A program made the position numbers and the translations under genes. DNA of 64,000 nucleotides from Patescibacteria group bacterium (lineage in GTDB: Bacteria > Patescibacteriota > Patescibacteriia > UBA9934 > GWF2-40-263): the NCBI GenBank assembly GCA_041661745.1, contig JBAZTR010000002.1:132368-196367 (forward strand), in the 5' to 3' direction. Positions 5,795 to 60,577 of this stretch are shown piece by piece. A model generated the notes under the pieces. The model searched no databases and was not told the origin of the DNA. It was given only the letters and a program-made list of their open reading frames with translations. Every line of letters starts with the position of its first letter. Position 1 is the first letter of the stretch.

Positions 5795-5996
5795 TTTATT
5801 ATGTCGTTTCGCATAAAAGACAACCTAATTTGGTGGCGAACTTGTCAAAGGTAAGGCAAGATTCGTTTTGATTTTTCGAATATTTAACGAAACATCCCGG
5901 ATCTGGCCGGGATGTTTTTTTATTCGAAAGGGGTCAACGAATTGTTCGTTTGTCCTGACGGACAAAAAACCGTCACTTCACCTCAAGAGGTCTGTC

Positions 5997-26439: not shown

Positions 26440-26694
26440 ACTGCCGTTCGCTACAATTCAATTTTTCAAGAAAAAAGGCTCATTCATCCAGTCTTTGGAG
26501 AATGGGTTTTAAAACTCCAGCGAACAACGATCATTCACAATTGAAGACCTGCAACAAACAAGCAAAAAGAATCAATTGTCAATTATACGATTGTAACGTC
26601 TATCAATGACAAATATTTAACTCCAAACAATAACGGAGCTAGTCATTTCTCAGAGTTCCTCCGAAGCCCGTAAGGGCAAAGGGGAATTTCTTCT

Positions 26695-28187
<1,493 letters not shown>

Positions 28188-52511: not shown

Positions 52512-52611
52512 TTTCGGTCGGTCAAACTCCCCGAGCCCGACATGCGACTCGGATTTTTATTTTGCGACACATTGTGATATTATCGGGGGGATAAATATGA
52601 TTAATCGGCGT

Positions 52612-52669
52612 CAGGGCGCTAAGGCGTTTAGGCCTTAGGGGCATAACCTTAAAGCCCTTTAACGCCCGG
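52612..52669. repeat. GC-rich palindromic intergenic repeat (copy R2), abutting the methyltransferase start codon
   Basis: CAGGGCGCTAAGGCGTTTAGGCCTTAGGGG..CCTTAAAGCCCTTTAACGCCCGG. Shares the 20-mer GGGCGCTAAGGCGTTTAGGC with the reverse complement of R1. Confidence 0.7.
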
Positions 52670-53995
52670 ATGCCGACCATCCAAACCAATCCCCAAAATA
52701 TGACATTTTTTGTACTCGGTTCTCACCCGGCCCTTTCGGTCGCAGAAATTGCGAACGTGCTTGGTGTGGAAATAAACCACTCACAATATTCAAAAGAAAT
52801 TTTATTGCTCGATGAAATCGGCACTTCACCCGAAGCCCTGCAAGGTCGTTTGGGTGGTACGATTAAAATCGGCGACATTGTCGGCGAAGTGAACCCCCCT
52901 TCGCCGGGCTTCGGCGGGGCAAGAAAAATTGATAAGGAAGAGGTCGCTGATCTTTTTGTTTCGCTTCTCGCCCACCCCTCACCCCTGCCCCTCTCCCTGA
53001 GGGAGAGGGGGGAGGAGGAGAGGGGTAACCGTGTTGTTTTCGGCATCAGCACCTATTCACTCGATGCCCACCGCGATCTTTCGACTGAAGTCAAACAAAT
53101 TGGCATGACCATAAAAACCAAGTTAAAAGAAGAAGGCCGAACCGCTCGTTTTGTTTCGACCAAAACTGCCGCCCTGCCAAGCGCGGCGGTGACCGGCGAA
53201 AAGCTTCTGGAAAACGGAGCTGAATTTGTAATCATTGTCTCTAAAGAAAAAATATACCTTGGTCAAACCCGCATTGTGCAGGATTTTCAAAGCTGGTCAG
53301 CCCGTGACTACGGTCGACCGCGTCGCGATGCCAAGTCCGGCATGTTGCCGCCAAAACTCGCGCGCATGATGATTAATTTGTCCGGCGCCAAAACCTCGGC
53401 TGCTTTGCTCGATCCGTTTTGTGGCTCGGGCACAGTGCTTATGGAAGCGGCGCTAATGGAATTTACCAATCTTATCGGCAGTGATATTTCCGAAAAAGCC
53501 ATTAAGGACACAACAATAAATTTAGATTGGTTAAATCAAAACGAAGAAGTTGATACTTCCGGAATTCGTCTTTTTAATAAACCAATCGAAACCCTGGCCG
53601 GAGACTTAAAAGAAAAAGTTGAGGTGATTGTCGGTGAAACCTATCTCGGTCCACCGCTCTCGGGTCGCGAAACACCGTTTCGACAAAAACAAATCATGGA
53701 CGAGCTGCTTGAACGCACCGCTTCCGGCCTGGCCGCCTTACTTCAACTTCTTAAAAAAGGTGGAACCGTGGTTTTGGCTCTCCCGGCTTTCTGTGCCCGC
53801 CATAGCCCGGCGACGGCGGGTCAGAATGGAAAAAATATTCAATATCTACCAACCAAAAAACTGGCCGAGGCCGTTGGTTTACAAATTGTTCCCTTCACCG
53901 GCGAACCAAACGAGGTTTCGCCTAATGGTGGGCTACTGTATGTTCGTGAAAATCAAAAAGTGGGAAGAGAAATTGTGAAAATGGTTCTTAAATAA
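52670..53995 (+). CDS. THUMP-type class I SAM-dependent RNA methyltransferase (RlmL/Trm11-like) with an in-frame palindromic insertion
   Basis: Motif I LLDPFCGSGTVLMEAA preceded by MLPPKLARMMINLSG. Low-complexity insert HPSPLPLSLRERGEEERGNR encoded by the palindrome at 52988-53010. Confidence 0.55.
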   Translation: MPTIQTNPQNMTFFVLGSHPALSVAEIANVLGVEINHSQYSKEILLLDEIGTSPEALQGRLGGTIKIGDIVGEVNPPSPGFGGARKIDKEEVADLFVSLLAHPSPLPLSLRERGEEERGNRVVFGISTYSLDAHRDLSTEVKQIGMTIKTKLKEEGRTARFVSTKTAALPSAAVTGEKLLENGAEFVIIVSKEKIYLGQTRIVQDFQSWSARDYGRPRRDAKSGMLPPKLARMMINLSGAKTSAALLDPFCGSGTVLMEAALMEFTNLIGSDISEKAIKDTTINLDWLNQNEEVDTSGIRLFNKPIETLAGDLKEKVEVIVGETYLGPPLSGRETPFRQKQIMDELLERTASGLAALLQLLKKGGTVVLALPAFCARHSPATAGQNGKNIQYLPTKKLAEAVGLQIVPFTGEPNEVSPNGGLLYVRENQKVGREIVKMVLK

Positions 53996-54112: not shown

Positions 54113-54180
54113 CGTGTCCGTCATAGCTCGCCTCGAGCGACGGCGGAATGCCACCTAGCCACCGCGATTCCAAAAACACT

Positions 54181-55101
54181 ATGCCAACTCAAATCGATAA
54201 ACTCTTAACTGACTTCCTTGAATATCTCGAAGTCGAACGCGGTCGCTCGGCCCGGACGATTAGAAATTACGATTTTTATTTGCGCCGGTTTATTAAATGG
54301 GCACGCCACCCTTCGCCGGCCGGCATTACCGATGATTTGATTCGCAAATTTCGCCTGTGGCTTAATCGTGCTGTGCCCGGACGACTTGATTCCACCATAA
54401 AAAAGAACACACAAAATTATCACCTTATTGCCTTGCGAGCTTTTCTTAAATACTTGGCTCGTCGCGATATAAAATCCATGTCCCCGGAAAAAATCGAGTT
54501 GGCTAAAGCCCCCTCGCGCATTGTTGCTTTTTTAGAAGCCGATGAATTGGATCGTGTTTTACAAATTCCCCTAGCCGCCGGCGAAGATTTAATCGGCTTG
54601 CGCGACAAAGCCATTTTGGAAATGCTTTTTTCGACCGGCCTACGCGTGTCCGAATTGGCTAATTTAAAAATCGATCAGGTAAATTTGAAACGCGACGAAT
54701 TCACTGTCCGCGGCAAAGGCGACAAACCGCGCGTTGTTTTTTTATCCGACTCGGCCAAAGAGTGGTTAAAAAAATATTTAAACAAACGCCACGATACTTC
54801 GCCTTACATGTTCATTTGCCACGACCGTGCCAAACGCGGCCGTGAGGATTCCGGTCCAATTACTCCGCGTTCAATCGAACGGATGGTTGAGTATTGTGCC
54901 AAAGCCGCCGGGGTCACCAAACGCATTACCCCGCACACCTTGCGCCACACTTTTGCCACTGACCTTTTAATGAACGGTGCCGATATTCGTTCAGTTCAAT
55001 CGCTCCTCGGCCACGCTTCCATCACCACCACCCAGGTGTATACTCATATTACGAATAAACAGCTAAAAGAAGTGCATAAAAAATTTCACGATAAGAAATA
55101 A
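54181..55101 (+). CDS. Tyrosine site-specific recombinase XerC/XerD
   Basis: HTLRHTFATDLLMNGADIRSVQSLLGHASITTTQVYTH catalytic box (R, H-x-x-R, Y). Confidence 0.85.
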   Translation: MPTQIDKLLTDFLEYLEVERGRSARTIRNYDFYLRRFIKWARHPSPAGITDDLIRKFRLWLNRAVPGRLDSTIKKNTQNYHLIALRAFLKYLARRDIKSMSPEKIELAKAPSRIVAFLEADELDRVLQIPLAAGEDLIGLRDKAILEMLFSTGLRVSELANLKIDQVNLKRDEFTVRGKGDKPRVVFLSDSAKEWLKKYLNKRHDTSPYMFICHDRAKRGREDSGPITPRSIERMVEYCAKAAGVTKRITPHTLRHTFATDLLMNGADIRSVQSLLGHASITTTQVYTHITNKQLKEVHKKFHDKK

Positions 55102-58325: not shown

Positions 58326-58430
58326 TTACAAATACAGTATAACATCAAAATGCCATATTGTAAATGACACAAAGTGGATAACTATCTTGGCTTAAATTGG
58401 CCTAAATATGTAATATCTGCCACTAAAGTC

Positions 58431-58459
58431 TTGACAAGTTTCCTCTTTTATGATACTAT
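58431..58459 (+). promoter_or_regulatory. sigma70-like promoter (TTGACA, 17-nt spacer, TACTAT) in a gene-free region
   Basis: Consensus -35 with good spacing. No ORF follows. Confidence 0.5.
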
Positions 58460-58465
58460 AGTGTC

Positions 58466-58668
58466 ATCAAGATGAGGTACAGGGAAGCGAAGACCAGTAC
58501 TTCACCAGATCTTTAAAAAATAACGAGCGAGAGAGCCCTAGTCCAGGGTTAAATGGACATCTACTGAACAAGTAGTCTCCCCTATCCTTATATAGGGGGG
58601 CGAAAGAACAGTGGAAAAGACAGGTTTGTGTATCTTTCTCAAATAAGAACATAAACCTGTCTTTTTCT
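58466..58668 (+). ncRNA. Candidate small RNA of about 200 nt (unknown family), bounded by a promoter and an intrinsic terminator
   Basis: Promoter at 58431-58459. Internal hairpins (CCCCTATCCTTATATAGGGGG). Terminator AGACAGGTTT..AAACCTGTCTTTTT at 58618-58668. No ORF longer than 14 codons. Confidence 0.4.
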
Positions 58669-58974
58669 TTAAGACTCTGTCCTGGCCAGACTTGCCAGGA
58701 ATTAACTTGGATGAAAAGGAGATAAACACGCTATCGGTTGAGTCCAACTCAATGGATTCCCGAGGAGATACGGCGAGAGAGATTATCACCCTTTCAACTA
58801 AGCCAAACTTCTTAACGAGTGCGCAGTGGCCTAATTCCCTACGGGTTGAGTTGGACCACCTGCAGTCTTTAAGAAGACTATGAGGTTCTGCAAGAGGTGT
58901 TGGAACCATCTTCTGCCGGATGAACTTTCACAATTGAATATTCATCAAAAAAACTGACCGATACTTCGGGGGCA

Positions 58975-59017
58975 ATTCGTAATTCGTATATTCGTACGAA
59001 TTCGTAATTTCGTCCCC
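58975..59017 (+). repeat. Array of five TTCGTA hexamers with an embedded palindrome ATTCGTACGAAT
   Basis: AATTCGTAATTCGTATATTCGTACGAATTCGTAATTTCGT. Confidence 0.6.
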
Positions 59018-59215
59018 TCTCTGGAACAAGCCGATTTCGGATACTCGACCTTTAACCAGCCATGCTTGGATTAAAGATCATCGAGCCCGAGACTCAGGAC
59101 GTTCTGGAAGATTCGGTCTTCTTAACGAGGAGGGTTCTTCTTCCTCGGTTCGAATAAGTTCTTAACCCCTCTCCCCAACCCTCCCCCAAGGTGGGAGGGA
59201 GATCTAACTTGAGAA

Positions 59216-59396
59216 CTTTGAGAAAAATATGATTTACCAAATTACCTACATCGCTTCGGCGATCGGAACACTTGGGTTCATGCTCGGATTGAGCTAACCC
59301 AAAAAGCACGAGAGAAAAATCTCACGCGTGCTTCATGATTTATAACCTCACCCCACCCTCTCCTTAGTAAGGAGAGGGAGTTACAGATCACGAAGC
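59216..59396 (+). repeat. 180-bp leader repeat, copy A: mini-ORF + hairpins
   Basis: About 90% identical to 60578-60760. Contains the 22-aa ORF at 59229-59297, an imperfect hairpin AGCACGAGAG..CTCACGCGTGCT, and a perfect hairpin CCCTCTCCTTAGTAAGGAGAGGG. Confidence 0.85.
59229..59297 (+). CDS. 22-aa hydrophobic mini-ORF (MIYQITYIASAIGTLGFMLGLS), leader peptide or type-I-toxin-like
   Basis: Conserved in both copies of the leader repeat (paralog MIYYFVYVASAIGTLGVLLGLS). The differences are largely conservative hydrophobic substitutions. Confidence 0.4.
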   Translation: MIYQITYIASAIGTLGFMLGLS

Positions 59397-59466
59397 ATTC
59401 GAGGAGATCCACCTTCGCCGAGCTTCGGCGGACAAGGAGTCCACGATTGCGAATCCTGTCCATGTT

Positions 59467-59498
59467 GGACGGGTCCGGCAGGCATGCCGTCCTTTTTT
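59467..59498 (+). terminator. Intrinsic terminator / attenuator immediately upstream of the ribosome-binding site and ATG of the first GC-rich gene
   Basis: GGACGGGTCCGGCAGGCATGCCGTCC hairpin, then TTTTTT, then GGAGGAAAACATG. Confidence 0.55.
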
Positions 59499-59508
59499 GG
59501 AGGAAAAC

Positions 59509-60372
59509 ATGCGCTTCGTCATCAGCAGCAATCCCGTCGTCCTCGCCGCCGCCCTGCAGGACAAGCCGTCCGCAACGGTCGAGGCCGAGTACGGCAACGC
59601 CGTGGTCGAGGGCTCTGTCCTCACCATGGCGCACCACGGCCCCCGCGCCGGCCAGCCCGCGCCCTGTGCCTACGAGAACGGCTGCGCCGACGGGGTCGAG
59701 GTGGTGGGCCTGTCCCACTTCGATCTCGACACCCTCGGCGGGTGCGCGGCCATCCTCGGCCGCAAGGTCGAGGCCCCGACCTTCTGGCAGCTCGCCGAGT
59801 TCATCGACCTCAACGGGGCTCACAAGCTCAACGAGGGGATCGAGAAGACCGGCGCGACGCCCGACGACGTGGCCAAGCTCTTCGCCTTCTGGGCGTGGTC
59901 GCGCAACTTCCGCGTCTTCCCGAACCGCGACGGCAGCGTCAGCGACGTCACCGACAAGGTCATCGAGGGCTGCAACGTCCTCGACAAGATCATGAACGGC
60001 GATGCCGACCTGATGAAGGCCGGAACGGTCTACAAGGACGCGGAAGGGAAACTCAACGCCGACTCGTTCGTGGAGGCGAAGGACGGCGTGGTGGTGCGGG
60101 TCTCGTCCCAGTTCACCAACCACCTGTACAACACCCCCGACGGGAAGGCCCACGCCGCGGTCGTGGCCTACACCACGACGACCGGCGCAGTCACGGTCAG
60201 CTTCGCGGACTCCCCCAAGGGCAAGAACGCCCGCCAGATCGTGCAGGAGCTCTGGGGTGAGCTCGCCGGTGGCCACGCCGGAATCGCCGGCAGCCCCCGC
60301 GACCGTCGCATGTCCCTCATCGACCTCACCGCGGCGGTCGAGGCCCTCCGCGCCGCGCTCGCCGGCAAGTAG
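59509..60372 (+). CDS. Hypothetical protein (about 68% GC, foreign composition)
   Basis: ORF 59497..60372 with ATG at 59509 behind a GGAGG ribosome-binding site. Strong GC3 bias. No motif recognised. Confidence 0.55.
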   Translation: MRFVISSNPVVLAAALQDKPSATVEAEYGNAVVEGSVLTMAHHGPRAGQPAPCAYENGCADGVEVVGLSHFDLDTLGGCAAILGRKVEAPTFWQLAEFIDLNGAHKLNEGIEKTGATPDDVAKLFAFWAWSRNFRVFPNRDGSVSDVTDKVIEGCNVLDKIMNGDADLMKAGTVYKDAEGKLNADSFVEAKDGVVVRVSSQFTNHLYNTPDGKAHAAVVAYTTTTGAVTVSFADSPKGKNARQIVQELWGELAGGHAGIAGSPRDRRMSLIDLTAAVEALRAALAGK

Positions 60373-60577
60373 TCACATAGGTTTCTTTCCCAATTTCTTC
60401 TCCTTAGGGCGAAAAAAGTAAATTGGCCATGTGTGCTTTCGAACTCGAGCACGCGTGGAACCGTAGAGTTCAAAAGGAAAGTCGTCTCCCTTTAAGTAGA
60501 CGGCAAAAACAATGCACTCGATTGGCGGATTCACTCCCCGCCTCTTCGACTAAACTCTTGAATTTTCTTTCGAGGGC

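What the first reader, a model, noticed from the sequence alone, without database searches (positions are those of the whole stretch)
59400..59511. Strong intrinsic terminator placed directly in front of the ribosome-binding site of the first high-GC gene
GGACGGGTCCGGCAGGCATGCCGTCC, then TTTTTT, then GGAGGAAAACATG. A canonical terminator 10 nt before the start codon, sitting downstream of the mini-ORF leader, is the layout of a transcription attenuator or riboswitch-type control. An upstream CCACCTTCGCCGAGCTTCGGCGG hairpin could serve as the alternative (antiterminator) structure.
Basis: seen in the sequence. Interest (0 to 1): 0.55.

Follow-up and report, generated by a model that had tools for sequence, protein, structure and literature searches.

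The report
Structured leader before an acquired gene
The hairpin, run of six T and ribosome-binding site are really there in front of a GC-rich, horizontally acquired gene, but the hairpin is a modest one that is predicted to lose out to a neighbouring hairpin, so this looks like a structured (possibly degenerate switch-like) 5' leader rather than a strong terminator or a proven attenuator.

Summary
The letters are exactly as described: GGACGG..CCGTCC at 59467-59492, T6 at 59493-59498, GGAGG at 59499-59503 and ATG at 59509.

"Strong canonical terminator" is overstated.
- The hairpin is 6 bp around a 14-nt loop (-11.4 kcal/mol, terminator score +2.1). The genome's clean terminators score +12 to +38.
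- It ranks about 73rd of 290 hairpin+T-run hits in the window.
- In the nascent transcript it is predicted not to form (p=0.001). An upstream 8-bp hairpin, P2 (59455-59473), takes its 5' arm.

The mini-ORF ends 170 nt upstream and belongs to a separate duplicated 179-nt unit.

No Rfam family matches. Neither the closest gene relatives (80-86% aa) nor any other of 19 homologous loci examined has this layout.

However, three other Patescibacteria carry a conserved, covarying leader with two mutually exclusive helices before the orthologous gene. The window leader shares three of its invariant blocks, but models built without the window do not recover it.

Best reading: a structured, probably degenerate regulatory leader giving leaky termination and/or SD occlusion. 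Regulated switching is unproven.

The parts
59409..59437 (+). Its stem is UUCGCCGA/UCGGCGGA. Its 3' tail is CGGACAAGG, which holds block 'a' (CGGAC, 59429-59433).
   Evidence: The hairpin is -11.0 kcal/mol with pair probabilities 0.75-1.0. It is a dispersed repeat: CTTCGCCGGGCTTCGGCGG at 52899-52917, and a copy at L014 5976-5996. CGGACAAG is invariant in the L069/L066/L013 leader family.
59455..59473 (+). P2 hairpin CCUGUCCA-UGU-UGGACGGG (8 bp). It competes with the proposed terminator for GGACGG and corresponds in position to the family's 'c' hairpin.
   Evidence: It is -11.6 kcal/mol with pair probabilities 0.94-1.0. It is transcribed before the terminator's 3' arm. L023 has a hairpin at the same place with compensatory changes.
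59467..59492 (+).
   Evidence: It is -11.4 kcal/mol alone with a terminator score of +2.1. Pair probability in context is 0.001 or less. Forcing this fold gives -42.9 kcal/mol against an MFE of -49.0. It has no counterpart in L069/L066/L013.
59473..59482 (+). GUCCGGCAGG. This holds blocks a' (GUCCG) and b' (CAGG), which are shared with the family leader.
   Evidence: The pattern CGGACAAG..CTGNC..GNGTCCGNCAG, taken from family-invariant columns, matches once in the window (59429-59481) and never in 100 shuffles. Models built without the window do not recover this site.
59476..59489 (+). HP2, a small hairpin CGGCA-GGCA-UGCCG. It is followed by UCC and then U6.
   Evidence: It is -6.8 kcal/mol with a terminator score of -28.8. 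Pair probability is 0.90-0.97 in the transcript ending at 59492 and 0.15 in the full-length leader. This is the only terminator-like site the tool's scan reports here.
59493..59498 (+). T6/U6 tract.
   Evidence: Read directly. In the full-length MFE it forms part of the stem and the loop of a hairpin that pairs UCCUUU with the SD GGAGGA. Relatives have GAAAAA, GAGAA or no tract at this place.
59482..59512 (+). Predicted SD/AUG-occluding hairpin. GCAUG pairs with CAUGC, and UCCUUU pairs with GGAGGA.
   Evidence: It is -10.5 kcal/mol alone and is part of the MFE. SD bases 59500-59503 have unpaired probability 0.01-0.04. Mean SD accessibility is 0.11 against a window median of 0.28.
59499..59511 (+). 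Shine-Dalgarno GGAGG, a 5-nt spacer and the ATG of the gene.
59509..60372 (+). Gene C: 287 aa, 69% GC, DHH/DHHA1-like. It is the gene behind the leader.
   Evidence: It gives a weak Pfam DHHA1 hit (E 1e-3). It has 283 homologues, mostly Patescibacteria, and 37 viral contigs carry a relative. Its GC is far above the flanks in many hosts.
59223..59401 (+). D1a, a 179-nt repeat unit lying directly upstream of the leader. It holds the 22-codon mini-ORF (59229-59297) and long palindromic hairpins. The second copy, D1b, is at 60588-60766.
   Evidence: The two copies are 88% identical and are the only copies in the window. The mini-ORF substitution pattern looks like coding sequence.
58431..58459 (+). 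The only good sigma-70-like promoter match upstream of gene C on this strand.
   Evidence: TTGACA-17-TACTAT with a TG extension, 10 of 12. No match of 9/12 or better lies between 58460 and 59509.
58619..58666 (+). Strong terminator-like hairpin plus T5, about 160-200 nt after that promoter.
   Evidence: It is -20.7 kcal/mol with a terminator score of +12.6.

Best explanation
The finding is the 3' part of a GC-rich, structured 5' leader of a horizontally acquired DHH/DHHA1-like gene. It is not a strong stand-alone terminator.

Predicted fold of the RNA made from this strand:
- P1 (59412-59434), a dispersed-repeat hairpin.
- P2 (59455-59473).
- Then either a small hairpin HP2 (59476-59489) or a hairpin that pairs UCCUUU and GCAUG with the Shine-Dalgarno sequence and the start codon.

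Inferred consequence: no promoter match of 9/12 or better lies between the only good upstream promoter (58431-58459) and the gene. Transcripts must therefore run through this leader. There, HP2+U6 can give at most leaky termination, and SD/AUG pairing lowers translation. The leader thus damps expression of the foreign gene.

The leader shares three invariant blocks with a conserved leader found before orthologous genes in three other Patescibacteria. These blocks are CGGACAAG, CUGUC followed by a hairpin, and GUCCGNCAG(G). In those relatives two covarying helices compete for the strand CAGRR, which is a switch-like design.

I read the window copy as a diverged, 5'-truncated relative of that leader. 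It has acquired a U6 tract, and its switching may be weakened or lost.

Shown: the sequence, the predicted energetics, the lack of conservation of the terminator layout, and the covariation in the relatives. Inferred: transcription through the leader, leaky termination, SD occlusion, and homology of the window copy to the family.
For: Energetics:
- P2 and the terminator are mutually exclusive and P2 wins. Terminator pairs have p=0.001 and P2 pairs 0.94-1.0.
- State energies are MFE -49.0, HP2 state -48.1 and forced terminator -42.9 kcal/mol.
- SD bases are unpaired with probability 0.01-0.04. Mean SD accessibility is 0.11, about the 10th percentile of 30 gene starts.

Strength as a terminator:
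- Score +2.1 against +12.6 to +37.9 for the genome's own terminators.
- Rank about 73 of 290.

Transcription context:
- No promoter match of 9/12 or better between 58460 and 59509.

Conservation of the layout:
- Not conserved. The 19 homologous loci scanned have no hairpin+T-run within 20 nt of the start.
- Relatives at 80-86% aa have unrelated flanks.

Family leader (L069, L066, L013):
- 96.7% of cells are paired, against 34-51% in slid controls. Seven pairs have double changes.
- The alternative helix b-b' is 100% paired with 5 double-change pairs.
- Conserved G-U pairs indicate RNA of this strand.
- There is no Rfam hit.

Link to the window:
- The pattern of family-invariant blocks hits the window once, at 59429-59481, and never in shuffles.
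- A model of the window leader hits the leader of the L023 homologue, with compensatory changes in P2.
Against: - All folds are thermodynamic predictions. Co-transcriptional kinetics, proteins or ligands could favour the terminator.
- SD accessibility of the relatives (0.20-0.25) is near the window median of 0.28, so SD occlusion is not a clearly conserved or exceptional feature.
- Homology of the window leader to the family is not demonstrated. The covariance model R2 and an nhmmer profile, both built without the window, do not recover it.
- Pairwise local alignment is only weakly above shuffles, with z = 0.4 to 2.6 against the family.
- The block pattern was chosen after I had seen the window sequence.
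- The family alignment has only three sequences.
- A hairpin directly followed by U6 can terminate even if it is modest.
- Promoters of Patescibacteria may not all fit the sigma-70 consensus scan.
Confidence: 0.45

Rival explanations
1. It is a genuine regulated attenuator or riboswitch-type switch. A signal (ligand, protein, temperature or translation) shifts the leader between a read-through/ON fold and a terminating and/or SD-occluded OFF fold, and so controls gene C.
For: - Mutually exclusive helices exist in the window: P2 against the terminator, and a/a' and b/b' against P1 and HP2.
- The related leaders show three-way covariation. Columns 160/161 covary with both 56/57 and 124/125, so two helices share one strand.
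- In L066 the b-b'+c hairpin is followed directly by A-U5.
- Unpaired blocks are conserved in sequence, as in aptamers.
Against: - No known family matches.
- The window copy lacks the family's 5' half. Its a-a' and b-b' states are 9-12 kcal/mol above the MFE.
- In the window, the 'a' block is locked in the P1 repeat hairpin.
- The window copy is not recovered by family models.
- The distance between 'a' and 'b' is only 7 nt in L069, which leaves little room for an aptamer.
- No leader peptide overlaps the structure.
Confidence: 0.2
2. It is an ordinary intrinsic terminator that ends the upstream transcription unit (the D1 mini-ORF unit or the spacer transcript). It merely happens to abut the next gene's ribosome-binding site in a compact genome, and gene C is then expressed by residual read-through.
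For: - A hairpin followed by T6 passes a classical terminator discriminant when taken alone (score +2.1).
- The genome clearly uses hairpin+T-run terminators.
- Other terminators lie within 28-37 nt of a downstream start: 5893-5914 and 25863-25830.
- The D1a unit has no other plus-strand T-run terminator before gene C.
Against: - It is much weaker than the genome's real terminators and is out-competed by P2.
- The second D1 copy has no such terminator downstream.
- The hairpin region shares blocks with leaders that travel with the gene in other genomes rather than with the upstream unit.
Confidence: 0.2
3. It has no function. It is a chance hairpin plus T run in a GC-rich junction made of repeat-derived palindromes next to a recently acquired gene.
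For: - Terminator-like sites in 57-64 kb are no more frequent than in shuffles (9 found against 9.2 expected).
- 73 hits in the window are at least as stable, so one falling next to a start codon is not surprising after a whole-window read.
- The leader is private to this lineage. Three assemblies are 100% identical, so there is no variation to test.
- The neighbourhood is full of dispersed hairpin repeats.
Against: - The leader folds better than shuffles (z = -2.6).
- It shares ordered invariant blocks with conserved leaders of orthologues and with the L023 leader.
- The T run directly abuts a strong SD.
Confidence: 0.15

Closest known systems
Rho-independent (intrinsic) terminators and terminator/antiterminator attenuators (trp-leader type, riboswitch expression platforms)
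   Same: - A G+C-rich hairpin is followed directly by six U, in a 5' leader.
- An upstream hairpin (P2) shares a strand with it, so the two folds exclude each other.
   Different: - The stem is only 6 bp around a 14-nt loop.
- The competitor is as stable, is made first and is predicted to win.
- No leader peptide overlaps the structure.
- No sensing domain is identified.
- The layout is not conserved in homologous loci.
Translational control by SD sequestration (translational riboswitch platforms; U-rich anti-SD RNA thermometers of the fourU type)
   Same: A U/C-rich stretch (UCCUUU) immediately 5' of the SD is predicted to pair with GGAGGA. GCAUG is predicted to pair with the start-codon region. 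The relatives also have a short anti-SD next to the SD.
   Different: - The predicted occlusion is only moderately stronger than for average genes of the window (0.11 against a median of 0.28).
- In the relatives it is unremarkable.
- No temperature or ligand dependence was tested.
Conserved leader before gene C orthologues in L069, L066/67/68 and L013 (undescribed; no Rfam match)
   Same: - The same gene family lies downstream.
- The blocks CGGACAAG, (A)AUCCUGUC/CUGNC + hairpin, and G-GUCCG-N-CAG(G) occur in the same order.
- The hairpin is followed directly by GUCCG.
- The b-b' pairing CCUG/CAGG is kept.
   Different: - The window lacks the 5' half (CGUAAU, Hp-1). The D1 repeat sits there instead.
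- Its 'a' block is inside a repeat hairpin.
- The outer part of helix P1ext is broken.
- It has a U6 tract.
- It is not found by a covariance model or HMM built from the three relatives.
Dispersed palindromic repeats (REP/BIME of enterobacteria; Rickettsia palindromic elements that insert in frame into genes)
   Same: This includes an in-frame occurrence inside a THUMP/UPF0020 methyltransferase gene at 52895-53025.
   Different: - Only 2-3 copies were seen in 64 kb.
- No associated transposase was seen.
- The relation to REP or RPE is by analogy only.
- The terminator hairpin itself is unique in the window.

Membership tests
Intrinsic (Rho-independent) terminator | G+C-rich stem with a short loop, followed at once by a U tract | tested here: inconclusive
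   The U6 abuts the stem and the 6 bp include 5 G-C pairs. However, the loop is 14 nt and the energy is -11.4 kcal/mol. The discriminant score is +2.1 (borderline), against +12.6 to +37.9 for the window's clean terminators.
Intrinsic (Rho-independent) terminator | The terminator hairpin is the fold adopted by the nascent RNA when the polymerase is on the U tract | tested here: not met
   In the transcript 59402-59492 the outer pairs have p=0.001. P2 (0.94-1.0) and HP2 (0.90-0.97) form instead. This is a thermodynamic prediction only.
Intrinsic (Rho-independent) terminator | 3' ends of transcripts map to the U tract | not testable with these tools
   No transcript data are available.
Leader-peptide (ribosome-mediated) attenuator | A short ORF whose translation overlaps the first segment of the alternative structures | tested here: not met
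   The mini-ORF ends at 59297, 170 nt before the hairpin. It belongs to a 179-nt repeat whose second copy (60594-60662) has no terminator behind it. No short ORF with a stop lies in 59400-59470.
Leader-peptide (ribosome-mediated) attenuator | An antiterminator that shares a strand with the terminator | tested here: met
P2 (59455-59473) uses GGACGG(G) of the terminator's 5' arm.
Riboswitch (any Rfam class) | Match to a described aptamer family | tested here: not met
   Rfam 15 was searched at gathering threshold on the window and at E<=5 on 58400-62400. Nothing relevant was found; the best hit over the leader was SorX at 16.5 bits against a threshold of 46.6. The related leaders also give no hit.
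Riboswitch (any Rfam class) | Conserved structured domain with covariation across species, upstream of the same gene family | tested here: inconclusive
   This holds for L069/L066/L013, but that is only three sequences. The window copy shares only blocks and is not recovered by the models.
Riboswitch (any Rfam class) | Ligand-dependent change of structure | not testable with these tools
   This needs in-line probing or termination assays.
Gene C leader family (L069/L066/L013) | 5' module: CGUAAU, Hp-1 hairpin, GAGCGCU | tested here: not met
   It is absent upstream of 59409, where the D1 repeat lies instead.
Gene C leader family (L069/L066/L013) | Ordered invariant blocks CGGACAAG ... CUGNC + hairpin ... 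GNGUCCGNCAG before the orthologous start codon | tested here: met
   There is one match in the window, at 59429-59481, and none in 100 shuffles. Among 2.46 Mb of held DNA a looser version of this pattern (different gaps; CTG[TC]C; no GN before GTCCG) occurs upstream of gene C in four lineages. It also gives three hits in viral loci pre-selected for part of the pattern, which I take to be chance. The pattern was chosen after I had seen the window.
Gene C leader family (L069/L066/L013) | Significant score to a profile built from the other members | tested here: not met
   CM R2 gives only a 0.1-bit local hit at 59429-59477 (E 6.4). nhmmer gives no hit at E<=100.
Dispersed palindromic repeat (REP/RPE-like), for the 59409-59437 hairpin only | Near-identical hairpin copies at unrelated sites | tested here: met
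   Copies lie at 52899-52917 in the window and at L014 5976-5996. The copy at 52.9 kb is read through in frame.
Integron cassette array (attC sites) | Integron integrase next to the array | tested here: not met
   The tyrosine recombinase at 54148-55101 scores best as XerC/XerD. Against the integron-integrase model TIGR02249 it scores 145 bits, below the cut-off of 265. The syntenic L003 locus shows no recombinase among the genes called in the 6 kb upstream of gene C.
Integron cassette array (attC sites) | attC architecture (R''-L''...L'-R' with RYYYAAC/GTTRRRY at the outer ends) | tested here: inconclusive
   The D1 palindrome has TTATAAC ... GTTACAG/GTTACAA, but these lie at the inner ends of 17-bp arms. 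That does not match the attC layout. No attC model was available.

The most novel reading that the evidence does not exclude
The leader before gene C orthologues (L069, L066, L013, and in diverged form the window) could be an undescribed riboswitch or attenuator class of Patescibacteria. Under this reading:
- A closing helix (UUUUGCGGAC/GUCCGNCAGRR) and a competing hairpin (CYUCUG...CAGRR) share one strand.
- The switch controls a phage-related DHH/DHHA1-like phosphoesterase that moves between genomes as a GC-rich single-gene cassette.
- In the window copy the U6 tract turns the same platform into a combined termination/SD-occlusion switch.
Probability: 0.2. Interest if true: 0.7.

Novelty: new member of a known kind. 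Interest (0 to 1): 0.42.

Why it matters
If the leader is a working switch, it would be a new cis-regulatory RNA in the Candidate Phyla Radiation, where very few regulatory RNAs are known. It would control a gene family that is shared with phages and sits next to a Csx3 ring nuclease, so its signal might be a nucleotide second messenger.

Even as a damped or degenerate leader, it shows how a foreign GC-rich gene is wired into a low-GC host: it has no close promoter match and lies behind hairpins.

Tried and rejected
- **Rfam.** Searches of the window, of the 58.4-62.4 kb stretch at E<=5 and of the related leaders gave nothing.
- **Leader-peptide attenuation.** Rejected on geometry and on the repeat nature of the mini-ORF.
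- **P1 as antiterminator.** Rejected because it does not overlap the terminator and is a dispersed repeat.
- **BLAST of the leader against 59 loci.** No match. The closest homologue, L003, aligns only inside the CDS. Contigs at 80-85% aa have unrelated flanks.
- **k-mer enrichment in 23 upstream regions.** Only the SD motif is enriched. An apparent GAAUCC motif near -59 was not significant as a k-mer.
- **Single-sequence CM of the window leader (R1).** One borderline hit, at the L023 leader.
- **Family CM R2 and nhmmer.** Neither finds the window leader.
- **Exact-pattern scans of viral contigs.** Scans for the D1 repeat and the terminator gave 0 hits. Two motif patterns gave only chance matches.
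- **Viral homologues of gene C.** They lack the leader.
- **Integron reading of the repeats.** Not supported: the recombinase is Xer-like and the layout is not attC-like.
- **att-like repeats at the ends of the GC-rich island.** None found.
- **Assembly chimera as the source of the GC jump.** Rejected. At least two assemblies from different samples share the junction at 100% identity, and low-GC host sequence resumes after about 68.2 kb.
- **Literature search for integrons or cassettes in Patescibacteria.** Nothing relevant.
- **PDB sequence search for gene C.** Nothing significant.
Full report
**1. What is in the sequence**

The window is a Patescibacteria (CPR) chromosome segment.
- It has a bacterial 16S rRNA gene at 26689-28185, an RNase P RNA gene, and about 44% GC.
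- NCBI names the product of the gene in question 'MAG: hypothetical protein WC702_02850 [Patescibacteria group bacterium]'.

- CCACCTTCGCCGAGCTTCGGCGG at 59409-59431.
- GGACGGGTCCGGCAGGCATGCCGTCC at 59467-59492.
- TTTTTT at 59493-59498.
- GGAGG at 59499-59503.
- ATG at 59509-59511.

The ATG opens a 287-codon ORF (59509-60372) of 69% GC. From about 59.4 kb to about 68.2 kb the DNA is 60-70% GC, interrupted by low-GC spacers. At least two assemblies from different samples carry this stretch with 100% identity, so the junction is real. It also means there is no strain variation to exploit.

**2. Is it a strong terminator?**

No.
- Taken alone, the 26-nt element is a 6-bp stem closing a 14-nt loop, at -11.4 kcal/mol.
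- A classical hairpin/T-tail discriminant gives +2.1. Nine clean terminators of the same window give +12.6 to +37.9.
- A whole-window scan found 290 hairpin+T-run sites at or below -7 kcal/mol. Of these, 73 are at least as stable as this one. The top of the list shows that this organism does use textbook terminators with perfect 8-14-bp stems and short loops.
- The tool's own scan reports only the inner 5-bp hairpin here. It finds no excess of terminator-like sites over shuffles in 57-64 kb (9 found, 9.2 expected).

**3. Alternative folds**

The hairpin proposed as antiterminator (P1, 59412-59434) cannot play that role because it shares no base with the terminator.

A different hairpin does. 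P2, CCUGUCCA-UGU-UGGACGGG (59455-59473, -11.6 kcal/mol), uses the terminator's 5' arm and is transcribed first.

In the transcript ending at 59492:
- the terminator's outer pairs have probability 0.001;
- P2 has 0.94-1.0;
- a small hairpin HP2 (CGGCA-GGCA-UGCCG, 59476-59489) has 0.90-0.97.

HP2 is -6.8 kcal/mol and stands 3 nt from the U tract. Its terminator score is -28.8.

For the full leader (59402-59530), the state energies are:
- MFE: -49.0 kcal/mol.
- HP2 state: -48.1.

The MFE contains a hairpin in which UCCUUU pairs with the SD GGAGGA and GCAUG pairs with CAUGC over the start codon. SD bases are unpaired with probability 0.01-0.04 in that context. In a standard -70..+20 context the mean is 0.11. 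That is about the 10th percentile of 30 gene starts in the window, whose median is 0.28.

The leader as a whole folds better than shuffles (z = -2.6).

**4. The mini-ORF**

The 22-codon ORF (59229-59297) lies in a 179-nt unit, D1 (59223-59401). D1 is repeated at 60588-60766 with 88% identity, on the far side of gene C.
- It ends 170 nt before the hairpin.
- The second copy has no terminator behind it.
- It therefore cannot act as a leader peptide for this structure.

Its substitution pattern suggests an independent small gene for a hydrophobic peptide. Four consecutive codons have only synonymous changes, and the other changes are conservative hydrophobic ones.

**5. Transcription context**

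On the plus strand the only good sigma-70-like match upstream is at 58431-58459 (10/12 with a TG extension). It is followed by a strong terminator-like hairpin at 58619-58666.

Nothing scoring 9/12 or better lies between there and the gene. If the consensus scan is valid for this phylum, gene C can only be reached by read-through.

**6. Comparative evidence on the layout**

Gene C is a DHH/DHHA1-like protein. The Pfam hit is weak, and the motifs AHHG, DLDTLGG and GGHAGIAGSPR are conserved. Homologues are mostly from Patescibacteria and occur in 37 viral contigs.

- **Terminator layout:** in the 19 homologous loci scanned there is no hairpin+T-run within 20 nt of the start codon.
- **Closest homologue, L003:** 86% aa and 85% nt identity. 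It aligns with the window only inside the CDS (59542-60366). It is nevertheless syntenic, with trmB and a large protein upstream. Those neighbours are only 20% and 31% identical in protein.
- **Contigs at 80-85% aa:** these also have unrelated flanks.

The terminator-next-to-SD layout is therefore private to this lineage.

**7. A related, conserved leader elsewhere**

Leaders of orthologues in L069 (69% aa), L066/67/68 (68%) and L013 (Gottesmanbacteria, 55%) align over about 130-185 nt.

*Conserved sequence blocks:*
- CGUAAU
- GAGCGCU
- GGCGGACA
- CUUUUGCGGACAAGA
- CUGYC.CGG
- G.GUCCG.CAG

*Consensus fold from RNAalifold:*
- a hairpin Hp-1;
- a long-range helix UUUUGCGGAC/GUCCG-N-CAGRR;
- a variable hairpin 'c' stacked on that helix.

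*Pair counts:*
- 96.7% of cells pair, against 34-51% when partners are slid.
- Seven pairs have changes on both sides, against 0-1 in the slid controls.

*Alternative helix:*
- b-b' (CYUCUG with CAGRR) plus 'c' is 100% paired, with five double-change pairs.
- Columns 160/161 covary with both 5' partners. This is what two mutually exclusive helices sharing a strand look like.
- In L066 the b-b'+c hairpin is followed directly by A-U5.

Several conserved G-U pairs argue for RNA of this strand. Rfam has no match. These statements rest on only three sequences.

**8. Does the window leader belong to that family?**

Evidence for:
- The window has CGGACAAG (59429-59436), AAUCCUGUC (identical to L069) running into hairpin P2, and GGGUCCGGCAGG (11 of 12 identical to L013). 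They occur in the family order and directly before the orthologous start.
- A pattern made of family-invariant positions hits the window once (59429-59481) and never in shuffles.
- In 2.46 Mb of held DNA a looser composite motif (different gaps; CTG[TC]C; no GN before GTCCG) occurs upstream of gene C in four lineages. It also gives three hits in viral loci that had been pre-selected for part of the pattern, which I take to be chance.
- A model of the window leader also picks the leader of the L023 homologue, with compensatory changes in P2.

Evidence against:
- A covariance model and an nhmmer profile built from the three relatives do not recover the window leader.
- Pairwise local alignment is barely above shuffles.
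- I chose the block pattern after seeing the window.
- The window lacks the 5' module. Its 'a' block is buried in P1, which is a dispersed repeat also found at 52899-52917 and in L014.
- The family-type states a-a' and b-b' lie 9-12 kcal/mol above the MFE.

I rate homology as likely (about 0.65) but not shown. If the copy is homologous, it is degenerate.

**9. Verdict**

- It is wrong or unsupported in its specifics: the strong terminator, P1 as antiterminator and the mini-ORF coupling.

My most likely mechanism is passive damping of a foreign gene's expression. This would work by leaky termination at HP2/U6 and by partial SD/AUG occlusion, in a leader that descends from a switch. Regulated switching, a plain upstream terminator and no function remain live rivals. 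Only 3'-end mapping, termination assays and probing can decide between them.

Noticed in passing
window 59509-60372; loci L003, L005, L008, L013, L021, L039 and others: The gene C family is consistently far more GC-rich than its host flanks in many lineages. Examples are 0.66 vs 0.37, 0.70 vs 0.44, 0.67 vs 0.38, and Shimazuella 0.60 vs 0.35. Between the window and L003 the CDS is 85% nt identical, while the syntenic neighbours (trmB and a large protein) are only 20% and 31% identical in protein. This indicates recent transfer of essentially the CDS alone into the same locus next to trmB.
   Followed up: partly
loci L284-L320 (IMG/VR): Relatives of gene C (29-50% aa over most of the protein in 36 of the loci; the 37th, L320, is only a 29-residue fragment) occur on 37 viral contigs, including contigs of 100-300 kb. 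The family is therefore shared with phages. None carries the leader.
   Followed up: partly
window 59223-59401 and 60588-60766: A 179-nt direct repeat flanks gene C. It holds a 22-aa hydrophobic mini-ORF (MIYQITYIASAIGTLGFMLGLS / MIYYFVYVASAIGTLGVLLGLS). The ORF differs by four consecutive synonymous codon changes and by conservative replacements. It is followed by about 100 nt that are 94-96% conserved and contain a long palindrome. It may be a small membrane peptide gene; a type I toxin-like unit is a guess.
   Followed up: partly
window 52895-53025: Two GC-rich hairpin repeats lie inside the THUMP/UPF0020 methyltransferase ORF (52670-53995) and are read through in frame. They are CCTTCGCCGGGCTTCGGCGG and CCCTCTCCCTGAGGGAGAGGG, giving the peptide ...PPSPGFGGAR...PSPLPLSLRERG.... 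This is reminiscent of Rickettsia palindromic elements. The same two hairpin types occur in the D1 repeat and the leader region.
   Followed up: partly
L003 6882-10000; L014 4800-7300; L047 895-2479: In other Patescibacteria, gene C sits in arrays of small GC-rich ORFs separated by lower-GC spacers built from lineage-specific repeated hairpin modules. Direct repeats flank the gene in L014 (49 nt) and L047 (106 nt). The organisation looks cassette-like, but no integron integrase is present.
   Followed up: partly
window 58571-58730: The best window hit of the family leader model R2 is here (18.9 bits, E 0.004, rough calibration). It lies just after the promoter-like site at 58431-58459 and spans the strong terminator at 58619-58666. 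It contains AAGA-CUCUG-UCCUGGC..GCCAGGA and then AAGGAGAUAAACACG. It may be a decayed second copy of the leader.
   Followed up: partly
window 60993-62019 and 62243-64000 (continues in L001): The GC-rich island also encodes several other proteins:
- a Csx3/Crn3 ring nuclease (100 aa);
- a separate Csx3-associated AAA protein (215 aa);
- a MoxR/RavA-like ATPase;
- a VWA/ViaA-like protein;
- a 768-aa protein and a 117-aa protein.
No CRISPR array or other cas gene was seen nearby.
   Followed up: partly
L060 200-403 and L064 600-797: Two other gene C relatives (85% and 70% aa to the window) share a different, long conserved leader of their own ('type 2': AACGCTGG..GGCAC..GTCTATATCA..GAGCGTGCCGATTTGCCAG..GGTAGCCAATCC). 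The gene family therefore has more than one leader type.
   Followed up: no
L001 1-370 versus window 52606-52975: The ENA contig matches the window at 100% only from 52976 onward. Its first 370 nt (a DUF559 gene) differ. The break falls at the repeat hairpin at 52976-53025, so it is either a structural variant or an assembly join at a repeat.
   Followed up: no
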